DNA of 64,000 nt from a virus (IMGVR_UViG_3300040801_003393:1-64000); one strand, 5' to 3'. Shown: positions 7,725 to 58,800, counted from the first letter of the stretch. Notes: generated by a model from the sequence alone, not told the origin. Made by a program: numbers and translations.

Positions 7725-10700
7725 TTAGAATGTACCACCGTCAACAGTGATGTCAGGATCTAGAGTAAACTCAGCAGGTGCTGGGTCAATACCGTTCGAT
7801 TGTAAGAACTTAAATGTTCCTGCATCGTTCTTAATCTGCAATCCACCTAGGTAAATTGTAGAACCTGCAACGTGTAATTCGCTCCACTGTCTGCTTGCAG
7901 AACCTAATGCATATGTGTCATCGGCTGCAGGAATTAGATCTCCTGTAACCTCTAGACCAGCTGCACCTTGTGTGGTAATGCTTGCAACGCCGTCCGATAC
8001 GCCTTCGATTGAAGTGGTTGTTGTAAGCTGACGTACTTCAATAACATCGCCTGTTGCTGGAGCTTCAGTAAATGTTAATGTTGTGCCAGATACACCATAT
8101 GCAGTTGTTGGTACTTGTACAACACCGTTAATGCTAACGATACATGATGCTGTTGTTTGTGAGCTCGATAGCGTAAACGCTACAGTTACATCATCACCAG
8201 CAAATGTTTCAGAAGCAATAATCGTGAACTCTGTTCCGAAGCTGCTCCACTGACTGGTAGAACCATCATAGTATTCATACTCATCAGTTGTGGTGTTATA
8301 ACGTAGCATACCAGCAATACCAGTTACTGGACGTTCTGCTGTAGTACCTTTGGATAGGACTACTGAAGTTGTGCCACCAACCTGGAATTGTACATCTGTT
8401 AGTGCTGTTGCGGTACCAATGTTAACACTGTCAGTGCCTGCGTCAACAAATACTAGGTTTTCGTCTGTGTTGCCTTCGATGCGGAAGTTATAGTCGCCGC
8501 CTGCGTCGTTAATTGTTAGCTCGGTACCAGCAGTTGCGCTAATATCATTGCCATCAATTGTGACGTTATCAATTGCTGCAGAACCTGTAACAGTCAATAC
8601 ACCGGTTACACCAGTTGCCTGTAGGCTTGTTGCACCTGTAGATACAGTAAACGTACCTGTCGAAACAGTTGTATTACCTACTACACCTAGTGTACCACCG
8701 ACCGTAGCGTTACCTACAATAGTAGCTGTATCACCACCTAGGTCGCCGGAAGCATCAACGTCGCCTGTAACAGTTAATGTAGATCCATCAAATGTTAAGT
8801 TGCCGCTGTCTTCTAGCTCACCACCTGTACCTGCTAGTACAACACGACCGTCTGTTAGGTCAGTTACGGCAGCGGTAGTTGTTGTTAAACCACCGTTGTG
8901 TGTTGTTAGAGCAGTAAAGGTAGATTCACCAGTTACACCAAGTGTTGTGGATACTGTTGCGCTGTTTAGCGTAGCAAGACCAGTTGTGCTTAGTGTGGTT
9001 GTACCAATGTTACCATCGTTAGTAATACCATCTGTTGTGGTTGTACCATCAACATCTAGTGTGCCAGTAACTGTAGCATTAGTGTTAACAGTTAAGTTGC
9101 CAGAAATTGTAACATCGTCTGGTAGACCAATTGTCATTGTGTCTGGGGACGAAACGTTAACCTCAATTTCGTTTGGTGTACCTTCTAATGTTACTGTATC
9201 ACCTATTAGAACATCCTGATCTGTGATGCCATCACTTAATGTCCAGCCAACGTTTAAAACGTTATCAGTAATGTATTGCAGGTTAACAGCATCGGTACCG
9301 ACCAACGGAGTTCCAACGTTTGTTACGACGTTTGAGCCCATGCTAACTGTGCTACCACCACCAATTTCAAAGTTGTCAACAGTTGTGTCGCCGTTAACGT
9401 CAAAGTTACCAGAAACGTTAATTGCTGTTGCATCAACCTGACCTGTTTCAGCGTTAACTTCAAACAGTGTTGTTGCTGCACCATTGGTAATGGTAAATGT
9501 ATCACCAGAACCGCCAACGATCGTAACGTCTGTCTGGAATGTAGCTGCACCGGTTACACCAAGTGTACCGCCAACTGTTGTGTTGCCAGTAATATCAGCT
9601 GTACCAGAAACGTCAACATCATCTAGTAGTGTTGTACCAGTAATGTCTGCACCAGAACCAACTGTTAACGAACCAGTTGTTGCAACGTCACCTGTTGTAT
9701 CAGCAACAGTAAATGCACCGGAGTCAGCATTGATGCCACCGTTTGCATTTAGCTGTCCACCAACTGTTAATGTGCTTGTTACGTTAGCAGTTGTCTGGAA
9801 GTTTGCAGCCGCACTTGCAGTTAGTGTCGTTACGGTTGTTGCACCAGCATTAACAACACCAAGTGTTGATGTGCCAGTAACACCTAATGCGCCACCAACT
9901 GTTGCACCGTTTGTAACATCTAAGCTATGTAGCGTAGCAAGACCACCTGTACCTAGTGTACCGGTAACCGAAACGTTGTCTGGTAGACCAATGGTTAATG
10001 CATCTGCGCCAACCGTAATCTCAATCTCACCAGCTACACCGTTAACAGTTAGGTCGTCGCCTCCAGCAATTGTGGTTGGGCCACCCGATCCGTTTGTGCC
10101 TGCAACAATGTCAAAACCACCGCCGACTAATGTGTCAACGTATGCTTTGTTAACTGCGTCAGTATTAGCTACTGGAGTAGCAACACCACCTACGACGTTG
10201 TCGCCCATGTCAATAGTTGCACCACCATCAACTGTGAAGCTACCTAGTGTAACTAGACCGTTAAAGTCTGCTGTGCCGTTAGCAACAAACGCACCATCGT
10301 CTACTGTAACGTTACCGTTATTGGCATCAATGATGAATAGGTCGTTTGTGGCGCCGTCTGTGACCTTAAAGATCTCACCATTGCCTCCAGCAATTGTAAC
10401 GTTATCGTTAAGTGTAGTTGCACCAGTTACATCTAAGGTACCACCAACTGTTACGTTACCAGTTGTATCTAGTGTATCCGAGTCAATGTTTGCGGCGTCG
10501 ACGTCAGCTAGTGTAGATATGCCTGTTACATCTAATGTACCACCAACTGTAACTGCACCTGTGGTGTCTAATGTATCTGCATCAATATCAGTTGCTGTAA
10601 CTGTTGATAATGTAGATGCACCAGTAACACCAAATGTATCACCAACAGTTGCCGCGCCATTAATTGTGGCAGAAGCTAATGTTGAAGCACCAGCACTTAA

Positions 10701-13700
10701 CGTGGAGTTTAGTGTTGTTGCACCAACTACGTCTAATGTGCTACCTACATCGACTGCACCTTGTAGATCGGATGTACCAGTAACAGTTAAGTTATCTAGT
10801 GATAGGTCACCTGTCATTGTGATGTTTGGTACAGTCATTGTAGTACCGTCGAACGTGAAGTTTGCGTCGTCTTCTAGTTCGCCGGCAGCACCAACAATTA
10901 CGATACGGTCTGTTGTTAGATCAGTTACCCGAGCAGAACCTGCTGCGATTGCACCAAGTGTACCAGAAATAACACCTGCTGTATCTGTTGCATCTGTGTA
11001 GAATACTATTTCGTCGGCAGAATGATCAAGACCCATAAACGCTTCTTTGTCAGCGCCGTCGTTATAGAACATCTTAACACCAGAGTCTAGTGTAGTGTTG
11101 CTATAATCTGTTGGTCCTAGTGTTGTAATAGCATCATCGATCTGTACCGTTGTAGAGTTAATGGTAGTTGTTGTACCAAGTACCGTTAAGTTACCAACAA
11201 TTCTAACTTCACCACCTGTGTCACCACCTGCTGGGTATGGGTCAATGTAAATGATTCCACTTGCAGATGTTGATTCGATTGTAGATCCGTTAATTACTAG
11301 ATCGTCAATGTTAGCTTGACCTGTAACAGTTAGTGTACCAGTTGTACTAACGTTACCGGTTGTCATGTCACCAGTAAAGGTTGAGGTACCTAATACGTCT
11401 AAGTTACCATTTAGATCTGTTAGGCCACTGATTGTTGCTGTTGCTGCTATTAAATCTGCGGTAACAGTTAAGTCATTGCCAATTGTAACGTCGTTTGGTA
11501 GACCGAAAGTTAATACCGTTGCGCCTAACTCGCTACCCCACGATATGTCAACTTCGTTGGCCGTACCTACAACTTTAACAGTATCGCCGTTACCAATTAA
11601 TGCTTGGTTTTCTAATAACTCGCCGCTTAATGTCCACTCAAAGTTATTAAGTTGAGTTTCAACATAATCTCTGTTAACAGCGTCAGTACCAAGTAAAGGA
11701 CTAGCAACACCACTTACGACGTTACCGCCCATATTAATAACTGCGCCAAGATCAAACGTAATATCGTCCATTGTAACAGCGCCATTGAAGTCAGCAGTGT
11801 TATTGGCAACTAATGCACCAGTTAATGTACTACCACCAGTTACGGCCAATGCACCACCAACTGTCCAGTTACTTGTAGTAGAGCCGGAAGCTGCTGTTAG
11901 CACGCCTGTGTTTGTAACACCTAGTGTAGATATACCAGTTACGTTCAACGTGTTGTTAATAGTGGTTGCACCGTCTGCTGTTAGTGCGTCTAATGTGGTT
12001 GCACCATCAACGTTTAGACCGTCATTTAGATCTGCTGCACCATCAACTTCAAATGTACCACCAACGTAAACGTTACCGTTCTCGTTGTTAATAGTAAACA
12101 AGTTAGTTGGTGTTACTGCACCGTCTGTAACTTTGAAGATTTCACCCGAACCACCGTTAATTGTAACGTTGTTTTCAAACGTAGATTCACCAGTTACGCC
12201 TAGTGTTGTTGTAACACTTGCACTGTTTAGAGTTGCAAGGCTGGTAGTTGATAGGGCCGAAGTAGATACGTTAGTTGTTGCTATTACGTTGTCGGCGGAA
12301 ACATCACCTCCTGCGGTTAAGTTTGTTGTAATACTAACGCTATCTGGTAAACCAATTTGTACCTGGTTGTCTGTAACTGCTGTCTCAATTTCGTTTGTTG
12401 TACCAACAACACTGAATGTATCGTTTGCTACACCAAGTGTTACGTTATCAGTACCAGTATCACCAGCAATCTTTAGTACAGCACCGCCAGCTGCAACTTG
12501 TGCATCGACGTAGTCTTTGTTAGCAGCGTCAGTACCAGCAGATGGTGTAGCAACACCACCTACGACGTTGCTGCCCATTGTAACTGTTGCACCGTTATCA
12601 ACTGCAAAGTTAGCAACGTTTGTCTGACCGTTTAGTTCGGTTGTACCTGTAACAGTTACGCCTGCGCCGAAAGATGCATCACCTCCAGTTACTGTGAAGT
12701 CGCCTGTGCCGTGTACTGTTGTATTACCTGTAGAAGATTCTACGCTAAATGTTGTGGTTGTGCCATCAGTGATGACAAAGTTTTTCAATGCACCACCATT
12801 TAATGTAATAGTATCATCAAATGTAGATGTGCCTGCTACTTCAAGTGCAACACCTAAATCAAGTGCTGTACCAGTAAATGCAAGGTTGGCACTACCTTCA
12901 AGTTCGCCGTTTGTGCCTGCAAAAACAATGTGTGTTGCTGTCAAGTCTTCAACGTTTGCAGAAGCTAGTGTTGCCTGACCATTAACATCAAGTGTGCCAG
13001 CAATAGCTGTGTTACCTGTTGTAGAAGCAACGGTGAAGTTTGTAACACCAACAGCTAGTTCAGTACCGTTAAAAGTTAACGATGTATAGCCGCCAAGTTC
13101 GCCATCGACACCTGTTGGAACAACAACCTGATACTGTGTTAGATCGCTGATTTTAGCTGATGTTAATGTAGCTGGGCCACCCGAAATTGCTGCAAATGTT
13201 GCTGCACTACCAACGTTTAATGTACCGTCAATGTCAACGTTACTTGTTGCATCTAATGTTGTGACTGTTGTTGCACCAGCATTAACAACACCAAGTGTCG
13301 ATGTGCCAGTAACGTTTAGCGTGCCACCAACTGTTGTATTACCACTCTGCGAGTTAACGCTAAATGTTGTACCAGCACCGTCGGTAATAATAAAGTCAAT
13401 GCCGCTGCCGCCGTCAATCGTAATATCATTTTCAAATGTCGACGCGCCTGTAACAGCTAATGTGCTACCAACTGTTGCACCGTTAGTTACAGCCAATGTT
13501 GTTGTCGAAATTGCACCGTCGTTTGTAATACCGTCGGTTGTTGTTAGGCCATCAACATCAAGTGTACCACCAATTGCTACGTTATCTGTTACGCTAATGC
13601 TATCAAGACTTGCTAAACCGCTTGAGGAAAGTGTCGAAAAAGATGCGTTACCTGCGACACCTAATGTTTCGCTAATTGAAACAGCATCAAGGTTGGTGAG

Positions 13701-14216
13701 GCCGTCGACGTCGAGGGATCCTGCAATTTCAACGTTTCCATTAAGATCTGCTAACCCTTGTACTGTTAAATCGCCAGTTGTTGAAAGACTTGCTGCGCTA
13801 AAAGTACCTTCAGCTGCAATATTTCCTGCACGGAAGTTTGCCATTGCTGAGATGTTAATTGAAGTCGAGGATTCAGCTGATGTAGTGAAACCAGCAATCC
13901 ACTCGTCTGTCTCTTCGTCCCAAATAAATGCGACGTTGGTGTCTGTTCCGCGTTCACCAATAAAACCAAAGTCTAATGCCGGTGTACCTGTTTGTAAAGA
14001 GCCCAAAACAAGGATTGGGTCTTCAACTGTTGTGTTTGTTGTATTAATTGTTGTAGTTGTACCGTTAACTAATAGGTTACCTTGTACCGTTAAGTTAGAC
14101 GGATAAACTAAGTTTTCAGCCAGTTTACCTGATGTTACTGTGTTATCGACTAGTTTTGCGCTAGCGACAATGGTAGCATCAGTAATCTGGTTGTTCTTAA
14201 TTCTTGTAATTGCCAT
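7725..14216 (-). CDS. Very long tail fibre/adhesin-like structural protein (2163 aa)
   Basis: Thr/Gly/Val/Asp-rich beta-repeats (TVGGTLDVTG), four ATP..TDAVNK.YVD-type neck motifs, GTTAERP..GMLRYNTT motif, ends in DGGTF; AGGAG RBS. Confidence 0.85.
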   Translation of the reverse strand: MAITRIKNNQITDATIVASAKLVDNTVTSGKLAENLVYPSNLTVQGNLLVNGTTTTINTTNTTVEDPILVLGSLQTGTPALDFGFIGERGTDTNVAFIWDEETDEWIAGFTTSAESSTSINISAMANFRAGNIAAEGTFSAASLSTTGDLTVQGLADLNGNVEIAGSLDVDGLTNLDAVSISETLGVAGNASFSTLSSSGLASLDSISVTDNVAIGGTLDVDGLTTTDGITNDGAISTTTLAVTNGATVGSTLAVTGASTFENDITIDGGSGIDFIITDGAGTTFSVNSQSGNTTVGGTLNVTGTSTLGVVNAGATTVTTLDATSNVDIDGTLNVGSAATFAAISGGPATLTSAKISDLTQYQVVVPTGVDGELGGYTSLTFNGTELAVGVTNFTVASTTGNTAIAGTLDVNGQATLASANVEDLTATHIVFAGTNGELEGSANLAFTGTALDLGVALEVAGTSTFDDTITLNGGALKNFVITDGTTTTFSVESSTGNTTVHGTGDFTVTGGDASFGAGVTVTGTTELNGQTNVANFAVDNGATVTMGSNVVGGVATPSAGTDAANKDYVDAQVAAGGAVLKIAGDTGTDNVTLGVANDTFSVVGTTNEIETAVTDNQVQIGLPDSVSITTNLTAGGDVSADNVIATTNVSTSALSTTSLATLNSASVTTTLGVTGESTFENNVTINGGSGEIFKVTDGAVTPTNLFTINNENGNVYVGGTFEVDGAADLNDGLNVDGATTLDALTADGATTINNTLNVTGISTLGVTNTGVLTAASGSTTSNWTVGGALAVTGGSTLTGALVANNTADFNGAVTMDDITFDLGAVINMGGNVVSGVASPLLGTDAVNRDYVETQLNNFEWTLSGELLENQALIGNGDTVKVVGTANEVDISWGSELGATVLTFGLPNDVTIGNDLTVTADLIAATATISGLTDLNGNLDVLGTSTFTGDMTTGNVSTTGTLTVTGQANIDDLVINGSTIESTSASGIIYIDPYPAGGDTGGEVRIVGNLTVLGTTTTINSTTVQIDDAITTLGPTDYSNTTLDSGVKMFYNDGADKEAFMGLDHSADEIVFYTDATDTAGVISGTLGAIAAGSARVTDLTTDRIVIVGAAGELEDDANFTFDGTTMTVPNITMTGDLSLDNLTVTGTSDLQGAVDVGSTLDVVGATTLNSTLSAGASTLASATINGAATVGDTFGVTGASTLSTVTATDIDADTLDTTGAVTVGGTLDVTGISTLADVDAANIDSDTLDTTGNVTVGGTLDVTGATTLNDNVTIAGGNGEIFKVTDGATNDLFIIDANNGNVTVDDGAFVANGTADFNGLVTLGSFTVDGGATIDMGDNVVGGVATPVANTDAVNKAYVDTLVGGGFDIVAGTNGSGGPTTIAGGDDLTVNGVAGEIEITVGADALTIGLPDNVSVTGTLGTGGLATLHSLDVTNGATVGGALGVTGTSTLGVVNAGATTVTTLTASAAANFQTTANVTSTLTVGGQLNANGGINADSGAFTVADTTGDVATTGSLTVGSGADITGTTLLDDVDVSGTADITGNTTVGGTLGVTGAATFQTDVTIVGGSGDTFTITNGAATTLFEVNAETGQVDATAINVSGNFDVNGDTTVDNFEIGGGSTVSMGSNVVTNVGTPLVGTDAVNLQYITDNVLNVGWTLSDGITDQDVLIGDTVTLEGTPNEIEVNVSSPDTMTIGLPDDVTISGNLTVNTNATVTGTLDVDGTTTTDGITNDGNIGTTTLSTTGLATLNSATVSTTLGVTGESTFTALTTHNGGLTTTTAAVTDLTDGRVVLAGTGGELEDSGNLTFDGSTLTVTGDVDASGDLGGDTATIVGNATVGGTLGVVGNTTVSTGTFTVSTGATSLQATGVTGVLTVTGSAAIDNVTIDGNDISATAGTELTINDAGGDYNFRIEGNTDENLVFVDAGTDSVNIGTATALTDVQFQVGGTTSVVLSKGTTAERPVTGIAGMLRYNTTTDEYEYYDGSTSQWSSFGTEFTIIASETFAGDDVTVAFTLSSSQTTASCIVSINGVVQVPTTAYGVSGTTLTFTEAPATGDVIEVRQLTTTTSIEGVSDGVASITTQGAAGLEVTGDLIPAADDTYALGSASRQWSELHVAGSTIYLGGLQIKNDAGTFKFLQSNGIDPAPAEFTLDPDITVDGGTF

Positions 14217-31471: not shown

Positions 31472-31695
31472 AACTACTAATGTTGGATTCTGACGAAATC
31501 GAACAATACGTTAATCAGCTTGACAATGAAGTAAAAAAGATACGCAAGGAATCGCTAAAACTCACCTGGGCTATGCGCGGCGGCATACAATATCATGATA
31601 TTTTGAATTTATCAATGGACGAGCGATTAATGATTGCCGAAATATCAAACGAAAATCTCGAAATAACCCAAAAGTCTGGGTTGCCGTATTTTTAA
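31468..31695 (+). CDS. Small baseplate hub assembly protein (gp51-like)
   Basis: ATGA overlap with the gp26-like gene; WAMRGGIQY..ILNLS..ER pattern. Confidence 0.55.
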   Translation: MKLLMLDSDEIEQYVNQLDNEVKKIRKESLKLTWAMRGGIQYHDILNLSMDERLMIAEISNENLEITQKSGLPYF

Positions 31696-31904
31696 TCAAA
31701 TAAACTATTAAATGTTTCTGTAGCTGAGAATTCTTCTTCTACAGGGATCTCACCGCTATTAATATCTTCTTCAGCTTGTTTATGCTGGACCAGCATAATG
31801 AACCCATGATTACGGCAATGTAAGTGGTAATGGATATTACCCAGAGAATCTGACTTGACATAGTAAAAATATGTGCATCCTTTATGGCACTTTGGTGATC
31901 GCAT
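31692..31904 (-). CDS. Small Cys/His-containing hypothetical protein
   Basis: 70 aa, CxxxC...CxxH; GATAAGTA late-like motif just upstream. Confidence 0.5.
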   Translation of the reverse strand: MRSPKCHKGCTYFYYVKSDSLGNIHYHLHCRNHGFIMLVQHKQAEEDINSGEIPVEEEFSATETFNSLFD

Positions 31905-32084
31905 AGTAATTTTACTTATCGTGCATTAAAGTCAGAGTTATTGAAATAATAATACAATATTCAAGCTCTCTAAAGAGAGCTATTCGTTTGACTAACGTCA
32001 AACTCATGTTTTTCTAAGGTTATATTTTAAGGTAATAATAATTTTGAATTTAAGAAAGAATTCATTACTGTGAATTATCCAATT

Positions 32085-32705
32085 AACGACTTCTTTATCG
32101 GCTTCCAGGAGGAAGAATCATACTCTGCCCGTCGCCGGGCAAAGTCATGACAGAAAGACACCTCCAGGCGTCAGATACCATTTCGGTAGTGCCCTACTAG
32201 TGGATAGCTGCTATGTCTACCCCAAGCACAAGAACCACACATTGATAAGGCGAGCCTATTTTACAATAAGCATGCTGGCGGTTGTCCTATACCAGCGTTT
32301 AACCTCGACTCAAACAACGGAACCCTCAGCCAACCTCAATGTGCAAGCAGCGGCATGTTGGGTCGACGGTTGGCGATACTTAAAGTATCTCTGTTTCTTC
32401 CAGAGCCGTCATCATTAGCCTTTATACACTATTTTCTAACATCCAAATGGGTTTTACGAAGGCGTATCCCATCATCGTCCTTTGGTAGGATAGTGGATGT
32501 TGACCCTGCTATTGCACAAGGATTTGCGTACCTTCTCACATCAGAAAGGATTAGCAGCGCCGTTAACCGCCCGCGCCAGGGCTTTCAATAGTGTATAATG
32601 GCTAATAGGTAAAGCCTGTTTGACCTAACGGTTTATCGTCCCGTAGACTAAAGTGATTTGTCCCGACCGTCCCTTCTACGGCCATTCTTGGCTGGGTGCC
32701 TGTAG
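32085..32705 (-). ncRNA. Putative large structured non-coding RNA (~620 nt), family unknown
   Basis: No credible ORF; about 49% GC by hand count over 32101-32700; many nested inverted repeats; G.U pairs and a GNRA loop favour the minus strand. Boundaries approximate. Confidence 0.65.
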
Positions 32706-32710
32706 TTGCC

Positions 32711-33244
32711 TTAAAAATTTACGCCCTGTGTACTAAATGCCTTAATAGAATCGCTATTATATTTAAAAAACATGGTAAATTCACTAATAATCCAGATACT
32801 ATTTGTACTATCGCTGGAGTATTGCATGTAGTTATCAAGACCGTTGAGGTGCTCGAAAATTTTCTTTTCTACTGCTACAAATTTACCTTGACGATTAAAC
32901 TTTAAAAACATAATGTTTAAATCGCCAATGTCGGCTGCGTCGTATACCTGTCCTATCCATTTATCAATGGTTGCTGACTTGCCGGTATAGAGTTGATGCC
33001 ATGTAAAGTCCTTATAGAACTTTGCTTCTGAATTAAAATATTTCCATTCCAGTGGTGGAATGATATCACCTTTAAATGCGCGAATTTGGCCTTCATGTAA
33101 AAACTCTTTTCGGTGTGCGTTTTTACCACCAACATATGCACCAGAGCTGGGAGTGCGGAGGAATGATTCGTTGTACAATTTGCACATGAAATCAGCTACT
33201 TCTTTTTCCCACCCTGATCCTTTTATTTTTGACGGTGACGGCAT
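32711..33244 (-). CDS. PD-(D/E)xK nuclease, Holliday junction resolvase-like
   Basis: KIKGSGWEKEVA...RTPSSGA...GDII...EAKFYK motif order. Confidence 0.75.
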   Translation of the reverse strand: MPSPSKIKGSGWEKEVADFMCKLYNESFLRTPSSGAYVGGKNAHRKEFLHEGQIRAFKGDIIPPLEWKYFNSEAKFYKDFTWHQLYTGKSATIDKWIGQVYDAADIGDLNIMFLKFNRQGKFVAVEKKIFEHLNGLDNYMQYSSDSTNSIWIISEFTMFFKYNSDSIKAFSTQGVNF

Positions 33245-34341
33245 TAGTTTGTCTCGTATCCTACACCATAATCAAAATCGACATATTGTTGTTGACATTT
33301 AAGATTGCACTCTACCCATGATTTATTTGGGTTATTCCAGGTATTAGTTAACGTTACCCATTTTTCGTCATTTAAGATTTCGATTAACGATCGTGTTTTA
33401 ATAGAGAAGTATTTTCTATTGTTTGAAAAAAAGCTATTTTCATATTTAATAGTTTTAATACCATCGCTTAATTCTTTATACGGGAAACTAACCCAGCTAC
33501 AAGGATGCACTACCCCGTCGGCACTTATATACATCCCCCGGTTACCAACTAAACACAAAGGAACTATATGTTCAGAATATTCTTTTTGGATTTTTTCAAA
33601 TCGGGTTTTATTGGTTTGCATGTACCTTTCGTTTTGGATTCGACGATCGGTTAAATGTTCTACATGGCGCTCATATCGATGCGTCGCAGAGATAAATTCC
33701 TCCCTTGGTTCGAGTGCATCGTCAATTCCATCGTACGCCTCGCCATACTTGCTGCCAAATTTTGTGCTTTTAGTCCATTGAATGGCGTCGCATCCATTTT
33801 GAATAGCCAATGATCTGATACTATCTTGGTGGTCCTGATTAAATCTAAAATATATCGCTGCCCAATTTATAAATGCCGAACTTCGATGACCCATGATGCG
33901 CATACCAGCCATGATAGAGTCAAAGTCTGAGTTTACTCGATATAAGTTATTAGAATCGTGGTCGTAACCATCAACACTAAAATTAATAGAGTCGTACTCA
34001 TTTAGAATCGATGCAAGTTCTTCCCACCAGGCGGGTTTACGATAACTACCGTTAGTAATGGTAAATGTATGGCAGCTCGGCTTAACCTCTTTAACATATT
34101 GAACAATTTCTAAAAATTCTTTATTGTAAATTGGATCACCAACATCACCACAGAAGGTAAACCGTTGTACATTAGATATAATAAATTCTGGAGTAAATGC
34201 TTCCTTAAATTCTTTTAGAGAAATGTCTTGGTTGAGCCACGGAGTTTCAGGGAATTCAGTACGCGGACATCGAGGGCACTTTAAAGTACACCGACTGCTT
34301 AATTCTATGTGCCAATGATATAATTGCCAGTTTACTGCCAT
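33244..34341 (-). CDS. Radical SAM protein with C-terminal SPASM/twitch domain
   Basis: CTLKCPRC (CxxxCxxC), FCGDVGDP, TNGS, FSVDG; CLVG...GVVHPC and ECNLKC. Confidence 0.9.
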   Translation of the reverse strand: MAVNWQLYHWHIELSSRCTLKCPRCPRTEFPETPWLNQDISLKEFKEAFTPEFIISNVQRFTFCGDVGDPIYNKEFLEIVQYVKEVKPSCHTFTITNGSYRKPAWWEELASILNEYDSINFSVDGYDHDSNNLYRVNSDFDSIMAGMRIMGHRSSAFINWAAIYFRFNQDHQDSIRSLAIQNGCDAIQWTKSTKFGSKYGEAYDGIDDALEPREEFISATHRYERHVEHLTDRRIQNERYMQTNKTRFEKIQKEYSEHIVPLCLVGNRGMYISADGVVHPCSWVSFPYKELSDGIKTIKYENSFFSNNRKYFSIKTRSLIEILNDEKWVTLTNTWNNPNKSWVECNLKCQQQYVDFDYGVGYETN

Positions 34342-34856
34342 AAATCCACCCTTTTAAGTCCTGACATCTCAGTTAATTGTTTAATTTGATGAGCAAGTGT
34401 TAATATATTATATTTTGGAACCGACAAATGTTTGATCATTTGGGTATCTATTGCACCAGGATTATAAATTCTAAGGTCACAGTGACATTCGGACCTAAGG
34501 TCTCTTACCGCTTCTTGTAAAATTTTTTTATGATATCGATACATCCAGAAATTTTGATTTTTTTCTATTTCTAAACGTGGATAATCAGCAGACATACTGC
34601 CAATGGTTACAATGGTTTTTGATGGGTCATCGCTCCATAATCTTGCAAAACACTCTAATACTTTTAATTGTCCGTCATTATCATACGCGCAATTGTATAA
34701 TAAATCAGAGTCAACAAACATTTCTCCCCAAGAAGACACGTTGTGAATGTCGAAGTCAGGACGAGAAATTACTTGTACCAGATTATTTTTGTCAGATTCA
34801 TATACTTTTTTGAGACCGTCAGCCAATCCTTTTTTTCCAGTTATTAAAATGTTCAT
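34332..34856 (-). CDS. Short-chain dehydrogenase/reductase-like protein (compact)
   Basis: MNILITGKKGLADG Rossmann start, YNCA, IVTIGS, YRYHK (YxxxK), NPGAIDT. Confidence 0.75.
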   Translation of the reverse strand: MNILITGKKGLADGLKKVYESDKNNLVQVISRPDFDIHNVSSWGEMFVDSDLLYNCAYDNDGQLKVLECFARLWSDDPSKTIVTIGSMSADYPRLEIEKNQNFWMYRYHKKILQEAVRDLRSECHCDLRIYNPGAIDTQMIKHLSVPKYNILTLAHQIKQLTEMSGLKRVDLWQ

Positions 34857-35755
34857 TTATATTTTTGTATAATTAAATCGTCAGTACAACCGGTACATCG
34901 AATTCGGTTACATGTAGTATAGAAAGGTAGTAATTGAAAGTCTTCAACGAGTCCTAATTCGTCGTTACGACAAACACCACTGTATACTTTTAACTTCGAA
35001 TCGATGTGTATTCTTAGGCGTCCAGCTGCACATTTCCATCCTTTCCAAAAATCAAGTTTATCGTTATGAAGAGTATTAGCATGTAACAGAAAGGTTGAAC
35101 CATCATTGGTAGTTGCTTGGCAATTATAATTTATATGATTCTGTAGGTTTTTGATAGAACTCGATGGAGTTATTTCTTCGACGTTATTCCTAAAATTTAT
35201 TTCATTGATACTATAGCTAATAGAATGCTTATCTAAGATTTCTTTATAAGTTATAATTTGTTCTTTATTCCATGGTTCATCCATCACGTTAACATGAAAA
35301 CTTTTTTCTGGACGAATCATGATCTGATTGAGCATAATGGCTGTTTCAAAGAATTTTTCAGAATTAAAAAATTCTGAATGAGTAGAAAATGTTATTGCTT
35401 CGACATGTTTACTTAGTTTTTCATAAAAGTTAAAACTAGCACTACCGTTTGATATTATTAGAATTGAATCAAAGTTTTTGAAATTTTCCCTTAACCATAT
35501 TACAAATGGTAAAAAATCTTTTACAGTGCTAATTTCCCCACCGGTGAACGTTATCTTTATAGGTAGGTCCAATATTTTAATTTGATCGTATATGTGTAAC
35601 CAAGATGATTTGAGAGTCTCAAATGAATGAAATTCTCCAAGTTTGTTGTGTAACTCCGGAGGACAATAAGAACATGCGTAATTACAATGTGAAGTTAACT
35701 CCCAAGTTATAGAGAATATATCTTTGATGGGTCTAATTTCAACAATTTGACTCAT
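34853..35755 (-). CDS. Radical SAM protein
   Basis: CNYACSYC, FTGGE, SNGS; C-terminal Cys cluster WKCAAG...GVC...CNRIRCTGC. Confidence 0.9.
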   Translation of the reverse strand: MSQIVEIRPIKDIFSITWELTSHCNYACSYCPPELHNKLGEFHSFETLKSSWLHIYDQIKILDLPIKITFTGGEISTVKDFLPFVIWLRENFKNFDSILIISNGSASFNFYEKLSKHVEAITFSTHSEFFNSEKFFETAIMLNQIMIRPEKSFHVNVMDEPWNKEQIITYKEILDKHSISYSINEINFRNNVEEITPSSSIKNLQNHINYNCQATTNDGSTFLLHANTLHNDKLDFWKGWKCAAGRLRIHIDSKLKVYSGVCRNDELGLVEDFQLLPFYTTCNRIRCTGCTDDLIIQKYK

Positions 35756-52841: not shown

Positions 52842-55800
52842 ATGGCAAGAATTCGAAGTGTAGATTTTCTACCAGAGATTTTTAAAACTACAACTAACAA
52901 AAAGTTTTTAGGTTCTACTCTTGATCAGTTAATACAAGAACCAAAACTAAAGGTAACACAAGGTTATATTGGCCGCAGGTCAGGCGCTGGGGTAGGGGTC
53001 AATGACACATATCTCATTGAGCCTACAGTCAGTCGGGAAAATTATCAGTTAGAGCCAGGTATTATTTTTAATGATAAGAATGGTGTTGCAGTTGATGCAT
53101 TAACTTATCCTGGGTTAGTTGACGGGTTGAACGTGCGTGGAGCATTAGTTAATAACCACAATAGATTATTCGAAGCAGAGACCTATTCGTGGGACCCGCT
53201 GTTTAACTTTGATAAATTTGTAAATTATAGTCAATATTATTGGCTACCGGAAGGTCCGTCGTCGGTTAACGTTCAAGCTGAAGAAGTATTGCTTGAAGAT
53301 GAGTTCGATGTCTCTCGGAATGATGGTGATAGTTCATACACCTTTTCCGGTAAAGCTGGTCAAAACCCAATTTTAACTTTAGTTCGTGGTGGAACGTATA
53401 CATTTAATGTAGGACAAACTGGCCATCCATTCTGGATACAAACTGAACCCGGATTGACGGGACATGTAAGTTGGGCGGAAAATATTTCTAGTAGAGAAAT
53501 ACTCGGGGTAGTAAACAACGGTGATGATAATGGTACTATAACATTTAATGTTCCATTGAGCAACGGACAAGATTTCTACGACACACTACTTGACCTAGGT
53601 CCTGTCGACTTAGCAACAATGGTTAAATTTAATGAAATTAACCGTAAGCCACTGGACGAAATCGTTTCAATTAACGAGATCGAAAACCTCGAAAATAAAA
53701 CTATTGTATTTGTTAACCCAACGGTCGGCGATGCAACTACCTTGGGTTGGGTAATCGAGGCATTACCAAATTATGCCGACTATAGTAATAGCGGAGATTT
53801 CAGCACCACAACCGTATTGACGTCGTTGTCAGAAAGATATCAGATTTTTAAAATTTTTATTGTATATGACAACTGGGGCGAAAACCCAATTATTAATTTG
53901 GTCCCTATTCAAACTGTAAATCAGTTTGAGAAGTTTACTATTCAATATGGACCAGTGTATAGTAATATCGGCTTTTATAAAAATTCCTCCGGTGTATTTG
54001 AACAAATTCCGAGAATAACTGCACCACTTGACCAACTATTCTACCAAGACGGCAACAATGAAGATATCTTTGGTGTTATTAACTTAGTTGACGCAAACGA
54101 ATCAGCTACTTTGTTTATTTCAGATATCATTGGAAATGATTCTTATACTAGCCCAAATGGCGTCGAGTTTACTAACGGTCTTAAAGTAAAATTTAGAGGC
54201 GATGTAGTTCCAGCAGAATATACCAACGAAGAGTATTATGTAGAAGGTGTAGGCACATCTATTAAGCTATTACCGGTAAGAGATTTTATTACGCCTGAGC
54301 CATATACTAAAAATGCATCAGATCCATTTGACTCGTTGCCATACGATTCCATTGCATATGATGGTAGTTTAAACTCACCGCTTGAAGAAGATTACTTAAC
54401 GATTAATAGAGCCAGTCAGGATCTGAACGCTTGGACTAGATCAAATCGTTGGTTCCATATTGATGTATTGCAAAAGTCGGCAGACTATAACAATGTAACA
54501 TTGGTTGTAGATCAGACTAGTAGAGCAAAGCGACCAATAATTGAATTCGAATCAAACTTGCAACTTTTTAACTTCGGCGCGGTTGCAAAAACACCCGTTA
54601 ATGTAATAGATACAAAAGAAGTAGATGCATTAAGTAACGTTCATGGTAGTCTGGGTTATGCAGTCGACGGATTTATTTTGTCCGAGGGCTCACGTATAAT
54701 CTTTGCAGCCGATACTGACCCGAATGTAAAAAATAAAATTTTTAATGTATCGTTTGAGGACCTGGACAATAGCGGAACAGAAACGTTAGTTTTAACGTTG
54801 GCCGAAGATGGCAACGTAGTTGAAGACGACGTAGTATTGGTTACCAGTGGATTAACGCAGCAAGGAAAAACATACCACTTTAGTAACAATCAGTGGGTAT
54901 TAGCACAGCAAAAGAATAGTGTAAACCAGCCACCGTTATTTGATATTTTTGACAACGACAATATTAGTTTCTCTGATATTTCAAAATACCAAGCATCAAC
55001 ATTTAAAGGAAGCAAACTTTTTAGTTATGCAATTGGTAACGGTTCAAACGATATTGTATTAGGGTTCCCACTACAGTATCTAAACATTGGCAACCTTGGC
55101 GATATTGTTTTTGAAAATAACTTGTATATAGATACATTTTTGTATGTTGAAAATTCAGTCAGCCAGGAACTTCCAATTAGCAGTGGATTTGTTAAGCAGT
55201 TCTCATCAGCAACAGAGTACAATTGGCGCATTGGTTGGACTAGATCTGCAGAAAGAATGTATGTCCCTCAAGTGTTTAACTTTACATATACCGGAGCACC
55301 ATTACAATTAGATGTAACACCAAGAACAGATTTAGAAGTCCCGTCTATTAAAATATTTGTTAACAACTCTTTTGTTCCGTCAACAGATTATGCAGTAACG
55401 ACGCATGACAGGGGAACGACGATTGCATTTAATGAAATTGTTGCTACAGATTCAAAAGTAGAGGTGCTAATTTACTCTGACGAGGTTAGCGACATCGGTT
55501 ACTATGAAGTGCCACGAAACCTGTCACAGAATATTTTTAATGAAAATACAGATAGGTTGACATTAGGAACAATTAGAAATCACTATAATAGCCTAGCACA
55601 AAATATTTTAAACCTAGTAGGAAATATCAACGGTGCTAATAACATTAGAGACCTAGGCAATGTTTCGAGTTACGGCGATATTATAATACAGCATGCCGCA
55701 CCGTTAGCATTGGCTGCTAAGTTTATTCGCACACGAGAGTACGACCTGTTTGAGGCAATTAAATTCAATGGTCGGTATTACGAAAAGTACAAGAATCAAT

Positions 55801-58800
55801 TATTAGATTGGGTGCAAAAAAACGATATTGCAGATCTTTCAATTGACGAAATTTTAGAACATGCAGTAGCAAATATTACGGCTGGTAAAACCCTCGACCA
55901 TGCATTTTATAATTCAGATATGTTACCAGCCGGCAATGATTACGACGTTGTAACCCATCAAATTACAGCGATCAGTACAGATACATTCGATATCATTAAT
56001 GTATATGATTTTACAAAGGCCAACTCGAAAGCCATATTAGTATATCTTAACGATACGCTGTTGGTTAAAGATCATGACTATATTGTAGCTGACGACGGCC
56101 CAAGGATAACACTATTAATCGACTCAAACATTGACGATATTTTGACAATAAAAGAGTACAGGGACACAGCTGGGTCAATGTTGCCTGCCACCCCAACCAA
56201 GTTGGGTTTGTATCCAAAGTATCTGCCAGAAAAGTTTGTAGACAATACATTCATTACACCAACTGAAGTTATTAGGGGTCACGACGGATCTATAACCGTT
56301 GCATTCGGTGACCTTAGAGATGACGTTTTGTTAGAATTTGAACGTCGCATATACAATAACATCAAGGTCAATGATAATATTCCGTTGTTATCTGATGATG
56401 TTATACCAGGACAGTATCGTAATACTGGTTATTCAGATATTGAAATAACAGAAATTCTGTCACCGTCATTCTTATCTTGGGTTGGTTGGAACCGACTTGA
56501 TTATAGGGAGCAAGACTATAGAGCAAATGATAGTCGCACCTGGAACTATAGCTCTTCGAGTAGCGTAATAGATGATTCTCTCTTAAAAGGTCATTGGCGT
56601 GGAGTATTCAAATATTTCTATGATACAGACGCTCCACATACACGACCATGGGAAATGTTAGGTTTAACTGAAGAGCCATCCTGGTGGGAAAATCAGTACG
56701 GTCCTGCACCATATACATCAGGCAACTTAGTTCTATGGGATGATCTAGAAGCTGGTATAATCCGGGACCCAAATGGAGAGTATATTGACGAAAGATATAT
56801 TCGTCCAGGACTAACAGATATAATTCCTGTCGACGGCGAAGGTAATTTACTAACGCCAATGGAAACGGTTGTTAAGACCTATTCGTCATACAACTTTAAA
56901 AAATCCTGGAGAATCGGCGATTTGGCACCAGTTGAGGCTGCCTGGAGACGTTCTTCATTATGGCCGTTCGCAGTACAACGATTGTTGGCCCTAACTAAGC
57001 CAGCACAATATTTTGCACTAATGGCTGACAGAGATCGTTACACATATAACGAGGAACTTCAGCAGTACCTATTAGATGGAAGATACCGTCTTGATTCTCG
57101 AGCAATCGAAGTATTAACATCGGATACTCCAAAACACAGTTACATTAACTGGATTATTGAATACAATAAACATTATGGTTATAACTCGGCTGACGAATTA
57201 GTTGAGAGTTTAAGTAACCTTGATGTTAACCTTTGCTATAGAATGGGCTCATTCACTGATAAGAATAGACTGAAGATTTTTACAGATAAGAGCTCGCCAG
57301 ATTCTACTAACAATAGTTTACTCCTACCAGATGAAAGCTATAACTTGTTACTGTATAGAAACCAACCATTTGACGAAATTATATATTCATCGGTTATTGT
57401 ACAAAGAGTTGAAGACGGATATTCAGTATTTGGTAACTCAACAACTGACCCGTATTTTAAAATAATGCAGAGCATTCCAAATGGAAACTTTAAAACTTTC
57501 CAAATTGGTCGAACAACAAAGTCAGCAACAACTATTAGAGTTCCGCAGGACTTTAGAGATTCTGTAGTTTACATTCCATACGGATACGTCTTCTCCAATA
57601 AGCACCAGGTAGTAGATTTCTTAGTAAGTTACGGTGAATACTTGTCTCGTGTTGGTGTCAAATTTAACAACAGTCAAGATACAGTAGATCTCGATTGGAC
57701 ACAAATGGCCAAGGAGTTTATATACTGGGTTGATCAGGGTTGGAGTATTGGAAGTGTTATTAACCTAAACCCAACAGCAGAATCATTGGAGTTTGAGCGA
57801 GAGTTAGCAATTGTTGATAGTTTACTTAATTTAGCAGTTAATGAGCAACCTCTCGATCAAAACAATATACCATTGGCGCCTGCTGATTATGTAATCGATC
57901 GACTTGAGAATAACTTTAAGTTGACGACACTCAATGATCGCATTTTAAGTTACCTAAATCTCCAGTTAACCAGCTTCGAACACTTGTTAATATTAGATAA
58001 CACAAGTATTTTCAATGATGTAATTTATTCGCCAGTGACCGGAGTCAGGCAGAACCGAGTTAAACTTGTTGGCTATACAGTTAACGAGTGGAACGGTCAA
58101 CTTGATGCGCAAGGATTTTTATTTAGTGACAATAAAATTGATGAATGGGTCTACACAAAATCCTATAGTAAAGGAAGCATTGTTAAGTTTAAGAATTCAT
58201 ATTGGACTGCAATAAAACCAATAAACCCATCGGAGATGTTTGATTACGACGCATGGGTTAAGATCGAGCCTAGCGATATATCAACTGGATTGTTATCTAA
58301 CCTAGCTACAAAGTCTGATCAAATGTTGCAATTCTATAACAATAAAACTGCAAACCTTGAATCAGATGCAGATTTGTTGGCATTAGGTTTAACTGGTTTT
58401 AGACCTCGTGAGTATATGTCATCATTGGATCTAGACGACATCTCGCAGGTAAACATCTATAGTGACTTAATAAAACAAAAAGGAACTTTAGACAGTTTAG
58501 GAATGTTTAAGAACATAACACTAAACGGAAACAAAACTGAATATAAGATTTTCGAAAACTGGGCAATACGTCGGGCACAATATGGTGCAACTGCGTCGCG
58601 AGCTTATTTTGAATTGCAACTAGACGAAGCGCAGCATAACGCAAATCCAACGTCAATTGCTATAGTAAATGGCCCAACTGAAGTAACAGATGCTGACCAG
58701 AAAGTTACTCTGAATCAGATTTACAAACAAAGTGTAAAGCATACCTCAAAAGATATTTTACCTTTGTTAACTGAAAAAGTTACAGACGTAAGTCTACCAT

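What the first reader, a model, noticed from the sequence alone, without database searches (positions are those of the whole stretch)
32085..32705. Candidate novel large structured ncRNA (~620 nt) downstream of the gp46-rSAM-resolvase operon
Seen: this is the only large non-coding stretch in a densely coding window, about 49% GC (293/600 by hand over 32101-32700) versus about 27% for the adjacent 180 nt. Pairings: a 20-bp long-range helix with one mismatch (32414-32433/32587-32606) encloses AACATCCA/TGGATGTT (32438-45/32494-501) and further hairpins; a three-way junction GACGG/CCGTC (32365-69/32406-10) carries two hairpins; CCGTAGA/TCTACGG (32641-47/32675-81); a 10-bp stem capped by a GCGA (GNRA) loop (32122-32145); GACGCC/GGUGUC (32157-32172). 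A possible 7-bp pseudoknot pairs GUUGUUU (32318-32312) with GGACAAC in the loop of the GCUGG/CCAGC hairpin (32274-32296). Several pairs are G.U on the minus strand but A.C on the plus, which points to a minus-strand RNA. Established: phages carry large structured RNAs of unknown function (GOLLD, ROOL). Inference: this is such an RNA, perhaps a new class (ribozyme, scaffold or replication primer). I could not find tmRNA, RNase P or group I/II intron hallmarks.
Basis: partly seen in the sequence, partly recalled or inferred. Interest (0 to 1): 0.88.

Follow-up and report, generated by a model that had tools for sequence, protein, structure and literature searches.

The report
Divergent full-length Polynucleobacter-1 phage RNA
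The gene-free, GC-rich 0.6 kb behind a nuclease gene of this uncultured T4-like phage encodes a real, knotted non-coding RNA on the minus strand. Its core is an orphan RNA motif catalogued in 2010 (Polynucleobacter-1), the rest is uncatalogued, and its function is still unknown.

Summary

It is not a wholly new class. The central 145 nt (32437-32581, minus strand) match Rfam RF01718, Polynucleobacter-1, at 54 bits (cut-off 37).

In 72 related phage contigs this motif is the 5' third of a 450-500 nt RNA. That RNA has two pseudoknots and strong covariation: 87.8% of cells paired against about 40% in slid controls. It always lies between the gp46 recombination-nuclease operon and the convergent baseplate-hub genes, as it does here.

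The window copy is an outlier of that family:
- It follows a PDDEXK nuclease gene, not the usual SegE-type GIY-YIG gene.
- It has a unique 100-nt GC-rich leader.
- A 20-bp helix clamps the motif.
- Much of its tail is rebuilt.
- It keeps pseudoknot 1 and the terminal hairpin.
- The two 7-nt boxes that are identical in relatives are only nearly identical here (CCUGGAGG / CCUGGAAG).

Function is unknown. My best guess is a trans-acting scaffold that shows two copies of one short word to a partner.

This scan has met the same family before on other DNA. In most related phages the same gap holds a second, different, uncatalogued structured RNA.

The parts
32607..32710 (-). 5' leader specific to this phage. 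It is GC-rich (0.52) and holds the hairpin CCGUAGA/UCUACGG (32681-32641). No homologue was found.
   Evidence: The MFE is no better than shuffles (z +0.4). There is no SegE remnant by tblastn. Typical relatives have a coding sequence here instead.
32587..32606 (-). 5' arm of the 20-bp helix that closes the motif.
   Evidence: 19 of 20 Watson-Crick pairs with 32433-32414. Duplex energy is -32.4 kcal/mol, against a swapped-flank null of -14.0 +/- 3.9.
32437..32581 (-). Polynucleobacter-1 motif (Rfam RF01718), full length, model positions 1-141.
   Evidence: 54 bits, gathering score 37, E 9.7e-9 over the window. nhmmer with a profile of 68 relatives gives E 4e-11.
32414..32433 (-). 3' arm of the closing helix. 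It is the A-rich linker (AAAGGCUAA) that is conserved in sequence family-wide.
   Evidence: BLAST similarity to 13 relatives runs on to 32415.
32365..32410 (-). Three-way junction, GACGG/CCGUC with hairpins CUCUG/CAGAG and AUACUU/AAGUAU. It stands where relatives have one simple hairpin.
   Evidence: It is specific to the window, so no covariation test was possible.
32330..32361 (-). Hairpin CCAAC...GUUGG. Its loop holds GCUGCU (32351-32346), the candidate 5' strand of pseudoknot 2.
   Evidence: Read from the sequence. It corresponds by position to the family hairpin whose loop pairs downstream (helices 8 and 9). For the window this is inferred.
32312..32318 (-). 5' strand of pseudoknot 1 (GUUGUUU).
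   Evidence: Pairs with GGACAAC at 32287-32281. The family pairing covaries (helix 10).
32274..32296 (-). Hairpin GCUGG/CCAGC with loop UAUAGGACAACCG, the receptor of pseudoknot 1.
   Evidence: My tail covariance model R1 gives 13.2 bits. E is 4.6e-4 in the 861-nt region and 0.06-0.07 in the whole record.
32213..32273 (-). Insertion specific to the window, at a site where several relatives also carry extra hairpins.
   Evidence: Gap fraction 0.8-0.97 in the alignment. The insertion hot spot is visible in A4 columns 445-520.
32207..32212 (-). AGCAGC, the candidate 3' strand of pseudoknot 2.
   Evidence: Six Watson-Crick pairs with 32351-32346. Inferred by analogy with helix 9.
32157..32172 (-). 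Hairpin GACGCC/GGUGUC that encloses box 1, CCUGGAGG (32168-32161).
32122..32145 (-). Terminal conserved hairpin, ACUUUGCCCG-GCGA-CGGGCAGAGU. It is the family hairpin that the two boxes flank.
   Evidence: Local alignment to the same element of L212 scores 45.5, against 24.5 +/- 4.5 for shuffles. nhmmer alone gives only E 0.12.
32102..32109 (-). Box 2, CCUGGAAG, 16 nt after the hairpin as in relatives.
31960..32097 (-). AT-rich trailer (GC 0.27) with hairpins at 32003-31986 and 31981-31964. The transcript end probably lies here. It matches the trailing hairpins found in relatives.
   Evidence: In relatives the last hairpin covaries (helix 17, 98% paired). The same trailing hairpins follow the unrelated 'type B' RNA, so they belong to the locus rather than to this RNA.
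32711..33244 (-). Upstream gene on the same strand: a PDDEXK_15 / RusA-like nuclease.
   Evidence: Pfam PF24608, E 5e-22; PHROG 244.

Best explanation
Window 32098-32710 (minus strand), probably with the AT-rich trailer down to about 31960, encodes one large structured non-coding RNA. It is a divergent, full-length member of a phage RNA family whose 5' third is the orphan Rfam motif Polynucleobacter-1.

Shown:
- The motif is present.
- The family extends 300-350 nt beyond the motif, with nested helices and two pseudoknots that covary.
- The RNA sits at one fixed place in these T4-like genomes, at the 3' end of the gp47/gp46 (Mre11/Rad50-like) operon and convergent with the baseplate-hub genes.
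- The window copy keeps the motif, pseudoknot 1 and the terminal hairpin.

Inferred:
- The RNA is made by read-through from the upstream nuclease operon. No late-promoter box lies within 600 nt upstream, and in relatives the nuclease ORF ends at the first base of the motif.
- It then acts in trans as a folded scaffold. Its business end is the terminal module, a conserved hairpin flanked by two copies of one short variable word that a still unknown partner reads twice.
- In this phage the scaffold is braced by a lineage-specific 20-bp clamp around the motif. The two words have drifted to 7 of 8 identity, and one of them is tucked into a hairpin.

My odds: 0.9 that it is a real RNA of this family, and about 0.25-0.3 that the scaffold-with-two-display-sites mechanism is right.
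For: Motif: Rfam RF01718 at 54 bits against a cut-off of 37, minus strand only.

Family structure: on 72 relatives, 86 pairs in 17 helices are 87.8% paired, against 38-43% when the partners are slid. 806 cells show a change on both sides, against 113-230 in slid controls. 0 of 500 shuffles reach any measure. Both pseudoknots are supported: helix 9 has 7 of 7 pairs with double changes, and helix 10 has 3 of 5.

Synteny: gp46 upstream and p75 plus baseplate hub convergent downstream in about 55 of 69 loci. The window has the same order.

Window tail: the pseudoknot-1 hairpin scores E 4.6e-4 in the region. Its partner strand sits at the right distance. The terminal hairpin region aligns to L212 at z about 4.7.

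Not a 5' leader: in many relatives the next gene downstream is on the other strand.

Twin boxes in relatives: the three variable box positions agree between the two boxes at 0.99-1.1 bits of mutual information, and no other column exceeds 0.57. The box-hairpin-box module also recurs in the different RNA that fills the same gap in other phages.

No TATAAATA lies within 600 nt upstream in 68 loci or in the window.
Against: Transcript, strand and ends therefore rest on comparative evidence only.

Profiles of the typical tail do not find most of the window's tail. nhmmer gives a best E of 0.1. The covariance model aligns only 21 nt. A T2 profile finds nothing in the region.

The three-way junction, the leader, the insertion and pseudoknot 2 of the window have no relatives close enough to test. 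Pattern scans for closer kin returned only chance hits.

The leader folds no better than shuffles.

The twin-box identity that defines the family's tail is not strictly kept here, which could mean decay.

No complement of the box word exists in the RNA or within 1.5 kb. The 'reader' is therefore hypothetical.
Confidence: 0.6

Rival explanations
1. A cis-acting 3' element of the gp47-gp46-rSAM-PDDEXK operon. On this reading it is a structured 3' UTR that stops 3'-to-5' decay, directs processing or terminates transcription, and has no trans function.
For: It always lies at the 3' end of that operon, with no late-promoter box of its own. The upstream ORF ends at or near the motif. The terminator-like scan marks the hairpins at 32145-32122 and 32172-32157.
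Against: About 450 nt with two covarying pseudoknots and sequence-invariant loops is far more than a 3' stabiliser needs. The co-varying twin boxes have no role in this picture. The trailing hairpins that look like the real terminators are shared with an unrelated RNA at the same locus.
Confidence: 0.15
2. A replication-origin element. The transcript would form a persistent hybrid and prime DNA synthesis, as ColE1 RNA II or the T4 oriF/oriG transcripts do, and the two boxes would be DNA-level repeats for an initiator.
For: Its size and folding recall ColE1 RNA II (textbook knowledge). An AT-rich tract with hairpins follows it. It lies beside the recombination and replication genes gp46/47. That note is a lead only.
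Against: Nothing here tests it. The GC skew shows no turn at the site. Only two boxes are present rather than an iteron array. The RNA-level covariation of tertiary pairings argues that the folded RNA itself is selected.
Confidence: 0.1
3. Only the 145-nt motif is functional in this phage. The leader and the rebuilt tail would be decaying or inserted sequence, making this copy a degenerate member.
For: Tail profiles mostly fail on the window. The boxes are not identical. The leader is not unusually stable. There is a 60-nt insertion.
Against: GC stays at 0.49-0.52 through leader and tail and then drops to 0.27 exactly after box 2. Pseudoknot 1, the terminal hairpin and the box spacing are kept. 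The new parts are themselves neat helices: 19/20, 5/5 with two hairpins, and 6/6.
Confidence: 0.1
4. A landing pad for homing endonucleases. The link between nuclease genes and the RNA would exist because free-standing nuclease genes insert next to a conserved RNA gene, not because they work together.
For: The usual neighbour is a SegE-type GIY-YIG gene (Pfam PF19835, E 1e-32). In the window, L002, L012 and the L182 group the neighbour is a PDDEXK gene instead. 78 of 80 PDDEXK loci lack this RNA.
Against: This explains the neighbourhood only and does not say what the RNA does. It is compatible with every other reading.
Confidence: 0.05

Closest known systems
Polynucleobacter-1 RNA motif (Rfam RF01718; Weinberg et al. 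2010, Genome Biol 11:R31, PMC2864571)
   Same: Window 32437-32581 (minus strand) matches the whole 141-position model above its gathering score. The habitat fits as well: the paper lists the motif for Burkholderiales and fresh water/estuary.
   Different: The catalogued motif is 141 nt and was marked as a probable cis-regulatory element. Here, and in 72 relatives, it is the 5' domain of a 450-620 nt RNA at the 3' end of an operon in T4-like phages. The tail, both pseudoknots and the twin boxes are in no Rfam model.
GOLLD, ROOL and OLE: large ornate RNAs, partly phage-borne, that form RNA-only homo-oligomers (Kretsch et al., Nature 2025, PMC12286853)
   Same: Size class (over 400 nt), dense tertiary pairing, a phage setting and unknown function.
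   Different: There is no sequence or structure match at E up to 10 and no neighbouring tRNA genes. No self-complementary or box-complementary loop that could link copies was found. Oligomerisation was not tested.
The unnamed 'type B' RNA that occupies the same gap in most related phages
   Same: It has the same locus (PDDEXK stop to convergent p75/hub) and about the same size. It has a conserved hairpin flanked by two co-varying short words, and the same trailing hairpins.
   Different: The 5' and central domains share no detectable similarity. There is no Polynucleobacter-1 motif and no Rfam match.

Membership tests
Rfam RF01718 Polynucleobacter-1 | Covariance-model score at or above the curated gathering score (37 bits) over the full model | tested here: met
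   54 bits, model positions 1-141 of 141, minus strand.
Rfam RF01718 Polynucleobacter-1 | Conserved core CACUAUCC ... GGACGA enclosed by the long-range helix | tested here: met
   The core CCACUAUCC ... GGACGA, enclosed by AACAUCCA/UGGAUGUU with 8 of 8 pairs.
Full-length Polynucleobacter-1 / twin-box phage RNA (family defined here from 72 contigs; not in the literature) | Fixed genomic place: after the gp46 operon, convergent with p75 and the baseplate hub | tested here: met
Full-length Polynucleobacter-1 / twin-box phage RNA | Pseudoknot 1: GUUGU-type strand pairing with the loop of the GGUAxxGGACAACCGCC hairpin | tested here: met
   Seven pairs in the window. The hairpin scores 13.2 bits, E 4.6e-4 in the region. 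The pairing covaries in the family.
Full-length Polynucleobacter-1 / twin-box phage RNA | Long hairpin whose loop pairs with a strand downstream of pseudoknot 1 (pseudoknot 2) | tested here: inconclusive
   A candidate exists, GCUGCU 32351-32346 with AGCAGC 32212-32207. The covariance model does not align this part, and no close relatives are available.
Full-length Polynucleobacter-1 / twin-box phage RNA | Terminal hairpin UUUGCCC-loop-GGGCAAAG followed by GUGUGA | tested here: met
   The window has CUUUGCCCG-GCGA-CGGGCAGAG-UAUGA. It aligns to L212 at z about 4.7. Profile E-values alone are weak.
Full-length Polynucleobacter-1 / twin-box phage RNA | Two letter-for-letter identical 7-nt words flanking that hairpin | tested here: not met
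   Relatives: 0.99-1.1 bits of mutual information between the boxes. Window: UGGAGGU against UGGAAGC is 5 of 7, or CCUGGAGG against CCUGGAAG is 7 of 8. I therefore file the window copy as a divergent variant, not a typical member.
GOLLD / ROOL / HEARO / raiA and other large Rfam RNAs | Any covariance-model match | tested here: not met
   There is none at E up to 10 on 31800-33000.
Group I/II intron, RNase P, tmRNA | Rfam or ARAGORN match; split flanking gene | tested here: not met
   The flanking genes are intact.

The most novel reading that the evidence does not exclude
The window RNA and the unrelated-looking 'type B' RNA that replaces it at the same locus in most related phages would be two forms of one undescribed class of phage RNAs. 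Their shared working part is a hairpin flanked by two copies of a programmable short word that a nucleic-acid partner reads by base pairing. That would be a guide-like or addressing function, possibly used by the nuclease genes that always sit next to it.
Probability: 0.1. Interest if true: 0.85.

Novelty: new variant of a known kind. Interest (0 to 1): 0.6.

Why it matters
RNAs above 400 nt with dense tertiary structure and no known function are few: GOLLD, ROOL, OLE, raiA and HEARO. Each has repaid study.

Here an orphan 141-nt Rfam motif turns out to be one domain of such an RNA. That RNA is common in freshwater T4-like phages and fixed at one locus beside the recombination nucleases.

The window copy is useful because it is an outlier. 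It shows which parts survive heavy rebuilding: the motif, pseudoknot 1, and the terminal hairpin with its box spacing. It also shows which parts are dispensable or replaceable: the simple hairpin after the motif, the single-stranded state of the A-rich linker, and strict box identity.

A second, different RNA with the same box-hairpin-box ending sits at the same locus in other phages. This points to that ending as the part to test first.

Tried and rejected
- BLAST of the region against 50,697 deposited phage genomes found no match.
- Profiles of the typical tail (nhmmer) against the window gave only two weak, collinear hits. A T2 profile gave none.
- A first T2 alignment (A6) held two rows with coordinates I had guessed wrongly. 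I discarded it and rebuilt it as A7. I then did not build a covariance model from A7, because MAFFT shifts the hairpin by one column in half of the rows.
- I tested the idea that a closing helix around the motif is family-wide. Own and swapped 5' flanks pair equally well with the linker (-14.2 against -14.0 kcal/mol). The helix is therefore lineage-specific: the window, L055, and the L013/L076 group.
- A short family helix AAACGG/UUGUUU was rejected because it overlaps the motif's own helix.
- I searched for a complement of the box word in the RNA and within 1.5 kb. Nothing stood above the control words, and no correlated column appeared.
- Leader as a remnant of a SegE gene: no tblastn match, and there is no SegE-like gene anywhere in the window.
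- Late promoter TATAAATA upstream: absent.
This says nothing about cellular copies.
- A pattern scan for closer kin of the window tail returned 4 chance hits in coding DNA.
Relatives cannot be drawn for a virus record.
- MAFFT of the window tail against L203 and L212 misaligned all but the terminal hairpin.

Full report
**What is there**

The window comes from a 110.5-kb IMG/VR record of an uncultured T4-like phage, which CheckV estimates to be 31% complete. It carries a T4-type portal, a baseplate hub and gp46/gp47-like nucleases.

Between the stop codon of a PDDEXK_15/RusA-like nuclease gene (32711-33244, minus strand) and a 70-aa ORF (31692-31904, minus strand) there is no ORF longer than 78 aa. 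The small ORFs in the gap match no phage protein family.

GC is 0.46-0.505 across 32100-32700, against 0.265 just downstream. By segment it is 0.52, 0.50 and 0.49 in leader, motif and tail. It falls to 0.27 right after 32098.

Folding energy is about 3 standard deviations below shuffles on either strand, from 20 shuffles only. Energy therefore does not decide the strand.

**What it is**

Rfam release 15 finds one family in the whole window: Polynucleobacter-1 (RF01718). The match lies on the minus strand at 32437-32581, scores 54 bits against a gathering score of 37, and covers the full model.

Weinberg et al. 2010 describe this motif as a candidate RNA from Burkholderiales and fresh water/estuary samples, tentatively cis-regulatory (PMC2864571). 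No other paper in the library names it.

Nothing else matches even at E up to 10. That excludes GOLLD, ROOL, introns and RNase P. ARAGORN finds no tRNA or tmRNA.

**The motif is one domain of a larger RNA**

A pattern taken from the motif core fished 120 viral contigs. In the typical contigs, a 143-aa ORF ends at the first base of the motif. The next gene starts 340-430 nt after the core. That ORF is a SegE-type GIY-YIG nuclease (PF19835, E 1e-32).

I aligned 72 non-redundant full-length stretches (A4) and wrote down a structure of 17 helices, two of them pseudoknots. Counting gave the following:

| Measure | Structure as written | Partners slid by 1-3 columns |
|---|---|---|
| Cells forming a standard pair | 87.8% | 38-43% |
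| Cells changed on both sides | 806 | 113-230 |
| Covariation score | 0.39 | 0.06-0.09 |

No shuffle out of 500 reached any measure.

- Pseudoknot 1 is a GUUGU strand pairing with ACAAC in a hairpin loop. It switches to GUCAU/AUGAC in 25-26 sequences.
- Pseudoknot 2 is a hairpin loop UUAGCGU pairing with a downstream ACGCUAA. It has double changes at all 7 pairs.

This confirms, on my own data, what earlier notes of this scan reported for other genomes.

**Synteny**

In about 55 of 69 typical loci, tblastn finds gp46 upstream on the RNA's strand. Radical-SAM genes, a 174-aa gene or a PDDEXK gene often lie in between. The p75 and baseplate-hub genes lie convergent downstream. The window has exactly this order.

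The window RNA is therefore the positional counterpart of the family. Because the downstream neighbour is so often convergent, the RNA cannot be a 5' leader.

No TATAAATA late-promoter box lies within 600 nt upstream in 68 loci or in the window. Read-through from the nuclease operon is therefore the simplest source of the transcript. This is an inference.

**How the window copy differs**

*Neighbour gene.* It follows a PDDEXK gene, not a SegE gene, and no SegE-like gene exists in the window. The PDDEXK link is not obligate. Of 80 metagenome loci with a PDDEXK relative at 48-56% identity, only two carry the motif.

*Leader.* There is a 100-nt GC-rich leader (32710-32607) with no homologue and no special stability.

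*Closing helix.* A 20-bp helix (19 Watson-Crick pairs) closes the motif. It sequesters the A-rich linker AAAGGCUAA, which is conserved and apparently single-stranded in relatives.
- This clamp is not a family feature. Own 5' flanks pair with the linker no better than swapped ones (-14.2 against -14.0 kcal/mol).
- The window (-32.4) lies far outside that null.
- L055 (-25.2, a 23-bp helix of unrelated sequence) also lies beyond the null's 1st percentile (-23.3). The L013/L076 group has 15-16 bp helices whose duplex energies are within the null.

*Tail.* The tail is heavily rebuilt.
- Sequence profiles of the typical tail give only two weak collinear hits (E 0.1).
- My covariance model of the first tail half aligns just the pseudoknot-1 hairpin. 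That hit scores 13.2 bits, with E 4.6e-4 in the 861-nt region and 0.06-0.07 in the whole record.
- A three-way junction stands where relatives have a simple hairpin.
- A 60-nt insertion sits at a site where other members also carry extra hairpins.
- A CCAAC/GUUGG hairpin offers GCUGCU to a downstream AGCAGC as a candidate pseudoknot 2. This is inferred.

*Terminal hairpin.* The hairpin 32145-32122 and its flanks are kept. They align to the same element of the metagenome locus L212 with score 45.5, against 24.5 +/- 4.5 for shuffles.

**The twin boxes**

In relatives, the terminal hairpin is flanked by two 7-nt words that follow constant ACUC and AUCU. The words differ between phages: AGAUAAU, GGAUGAU, GCAUAAU, AGAUGAG, GAAUAAU and others.

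Within one RNA they are the same. The three variable positions share 0.99-1.1 bits of mutual information with their twins, and at most 0.57 bits with any other column.

Divergent members keep the rule with other words. The L182 type has CGUCAAG twice, and L203 has GGGAAAU twice.

I found no complement of the word in the RNA or within 1.5 kb.

In the window, the two homologous places read CCUGGAGG (32168-32161) and CCUGGAAG (32109-32102). That is 7 of 8, or 5 of 7 for the box proper. The first lies inside the 6-bp hairpin 32172-32157. I estimate the chance of so good a match in the 60 nt before the hairpin at about 0.03 (my arithmetic).

The strict rule is thus not met. I file the window copy as a divergent variant of the family.

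**A second RNA at the same locus**

In 57 of the 80 PDDEXK loci, the gap of 465-760 nt between the PDDEXK gene and the convergent p75 gene holds a different conserved element.
- It has no motif hit and no Rfam hit.
- RNAalifold on 23 copies predicts 70 pairs, 40 of them with compensatory changes.
- It also ends in a conserved hairpin (GGUAGUGC...GCACUACC) flanked by two words that change together: GGCAA, GUAAU or GGCAUG.
- The same trailing hairpins follow it as follow the Polynucleobacter-1 type RNA.

The trailing hairpins therefore belong to the locus. The box-hairpin-box module is the one feature the two RNAs share.

**How it most likely works**

- Shown: a conserved, knotted fold at a fixed place beside recombination nucleases, and a terminal module with two co-varying words.
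- Inferred: a trans-acting scaffold that presents the same short word twice to one kind of partner. I took this reading over from earlier notes of the scan and could only partly test it.

I put 0.9 on 'real RNA of this family' and 0.25-0.3 on that mechanism.

The rivals are a cis-acting 3' stabiliser or terminator, a replication-primer or origin element, and a decayed copy in which only the motif works. A fourth idea, that the RNA is a landing pad for homing nucleases, explains the neighbourhood only. None is excluded. No expression data could be obtained.

**Novelty and score**

The core is a known Rfam family. The full-length RNA, its pseudoknots and its boxes are in neither Rfam nor the searched literature. 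I rate it a new variant of a known kind.

This scan has found the same family repeatedly on other DNA. What this window adds is an outlier copy with a clamp helix, a new leader and relaxed boxes, plus the observation of an alternative RNA at the same locus.

Noticed in passing
L152-L231 (for example L152:3040-3480, L175:3040-3520), the gap between the PDDEXK gene and the convergent p75 gene: 57 of 80 related metagenome loci hold a different conserved non-coding element of about 400-450 nt at the same locus. RNAalifold predicts 70 pairs, 40 of them with compensatory changes. There is no Rfam match. It ends in a hairpin flanked by two co-varying short words, as the Polynucleobacter-1 type RNA does.
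   Followed up: partly
window 32512-32491 and 32214-32198 (minus strand): AUAGCAG and AUCCACUA occur in the same order both in the motif core and in the tail just after the candidate pseudoknot-2 strand. CGCUGCU also occurs twice (32559 and 32352). This may be a partial internal duplication or a set of alternative pairing partners.
   Followed up: no
window 33244-35755 (minus strand): Two radical-SAM genes, one with a SPASM domain, and a 174-aa gene of no known family lie between gp46 and the PDDEXK gene. The same cassette comes and goes among relatives.
   Followed up: no
window 31964-32003: Two adjacent perfect 7-bp hairpins sit in the AT-rich trailer. The consensus scan reads them as terminator-like on the plus strand only. 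Relatives have covarying hairpins at the same place, including a GAGCGAAGCGAAG element with a GAAA loop.
   Followed up: partly
L201:3040-3140: Tandem repeats of about 22 nt (CAGAGAACAACTCAA...) lie directly after the PDDEXK gene of one related locus.
   Followed up: no
window 7725-14216 (minus strand) and 52842-63998 (plus strand): Two very long ORFs: 2163 aa, and more than 3719 aa running off the window's end. Neither was examined.
   Followed up: no
L203:590-1100 and L212:3000-3480: Two PDDEXK loci carry a family-type tail (covariance-model E about 1e-3, twin boxes GGGAAAU and AGAUGAA) behind a 5' domain that neither Rfam nor my motif profile recognises. L203 shares GGGUUCCGUUG and AACGCUGG with the window tail, so it may be the window's nearest known relative.
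   Followed up: partly
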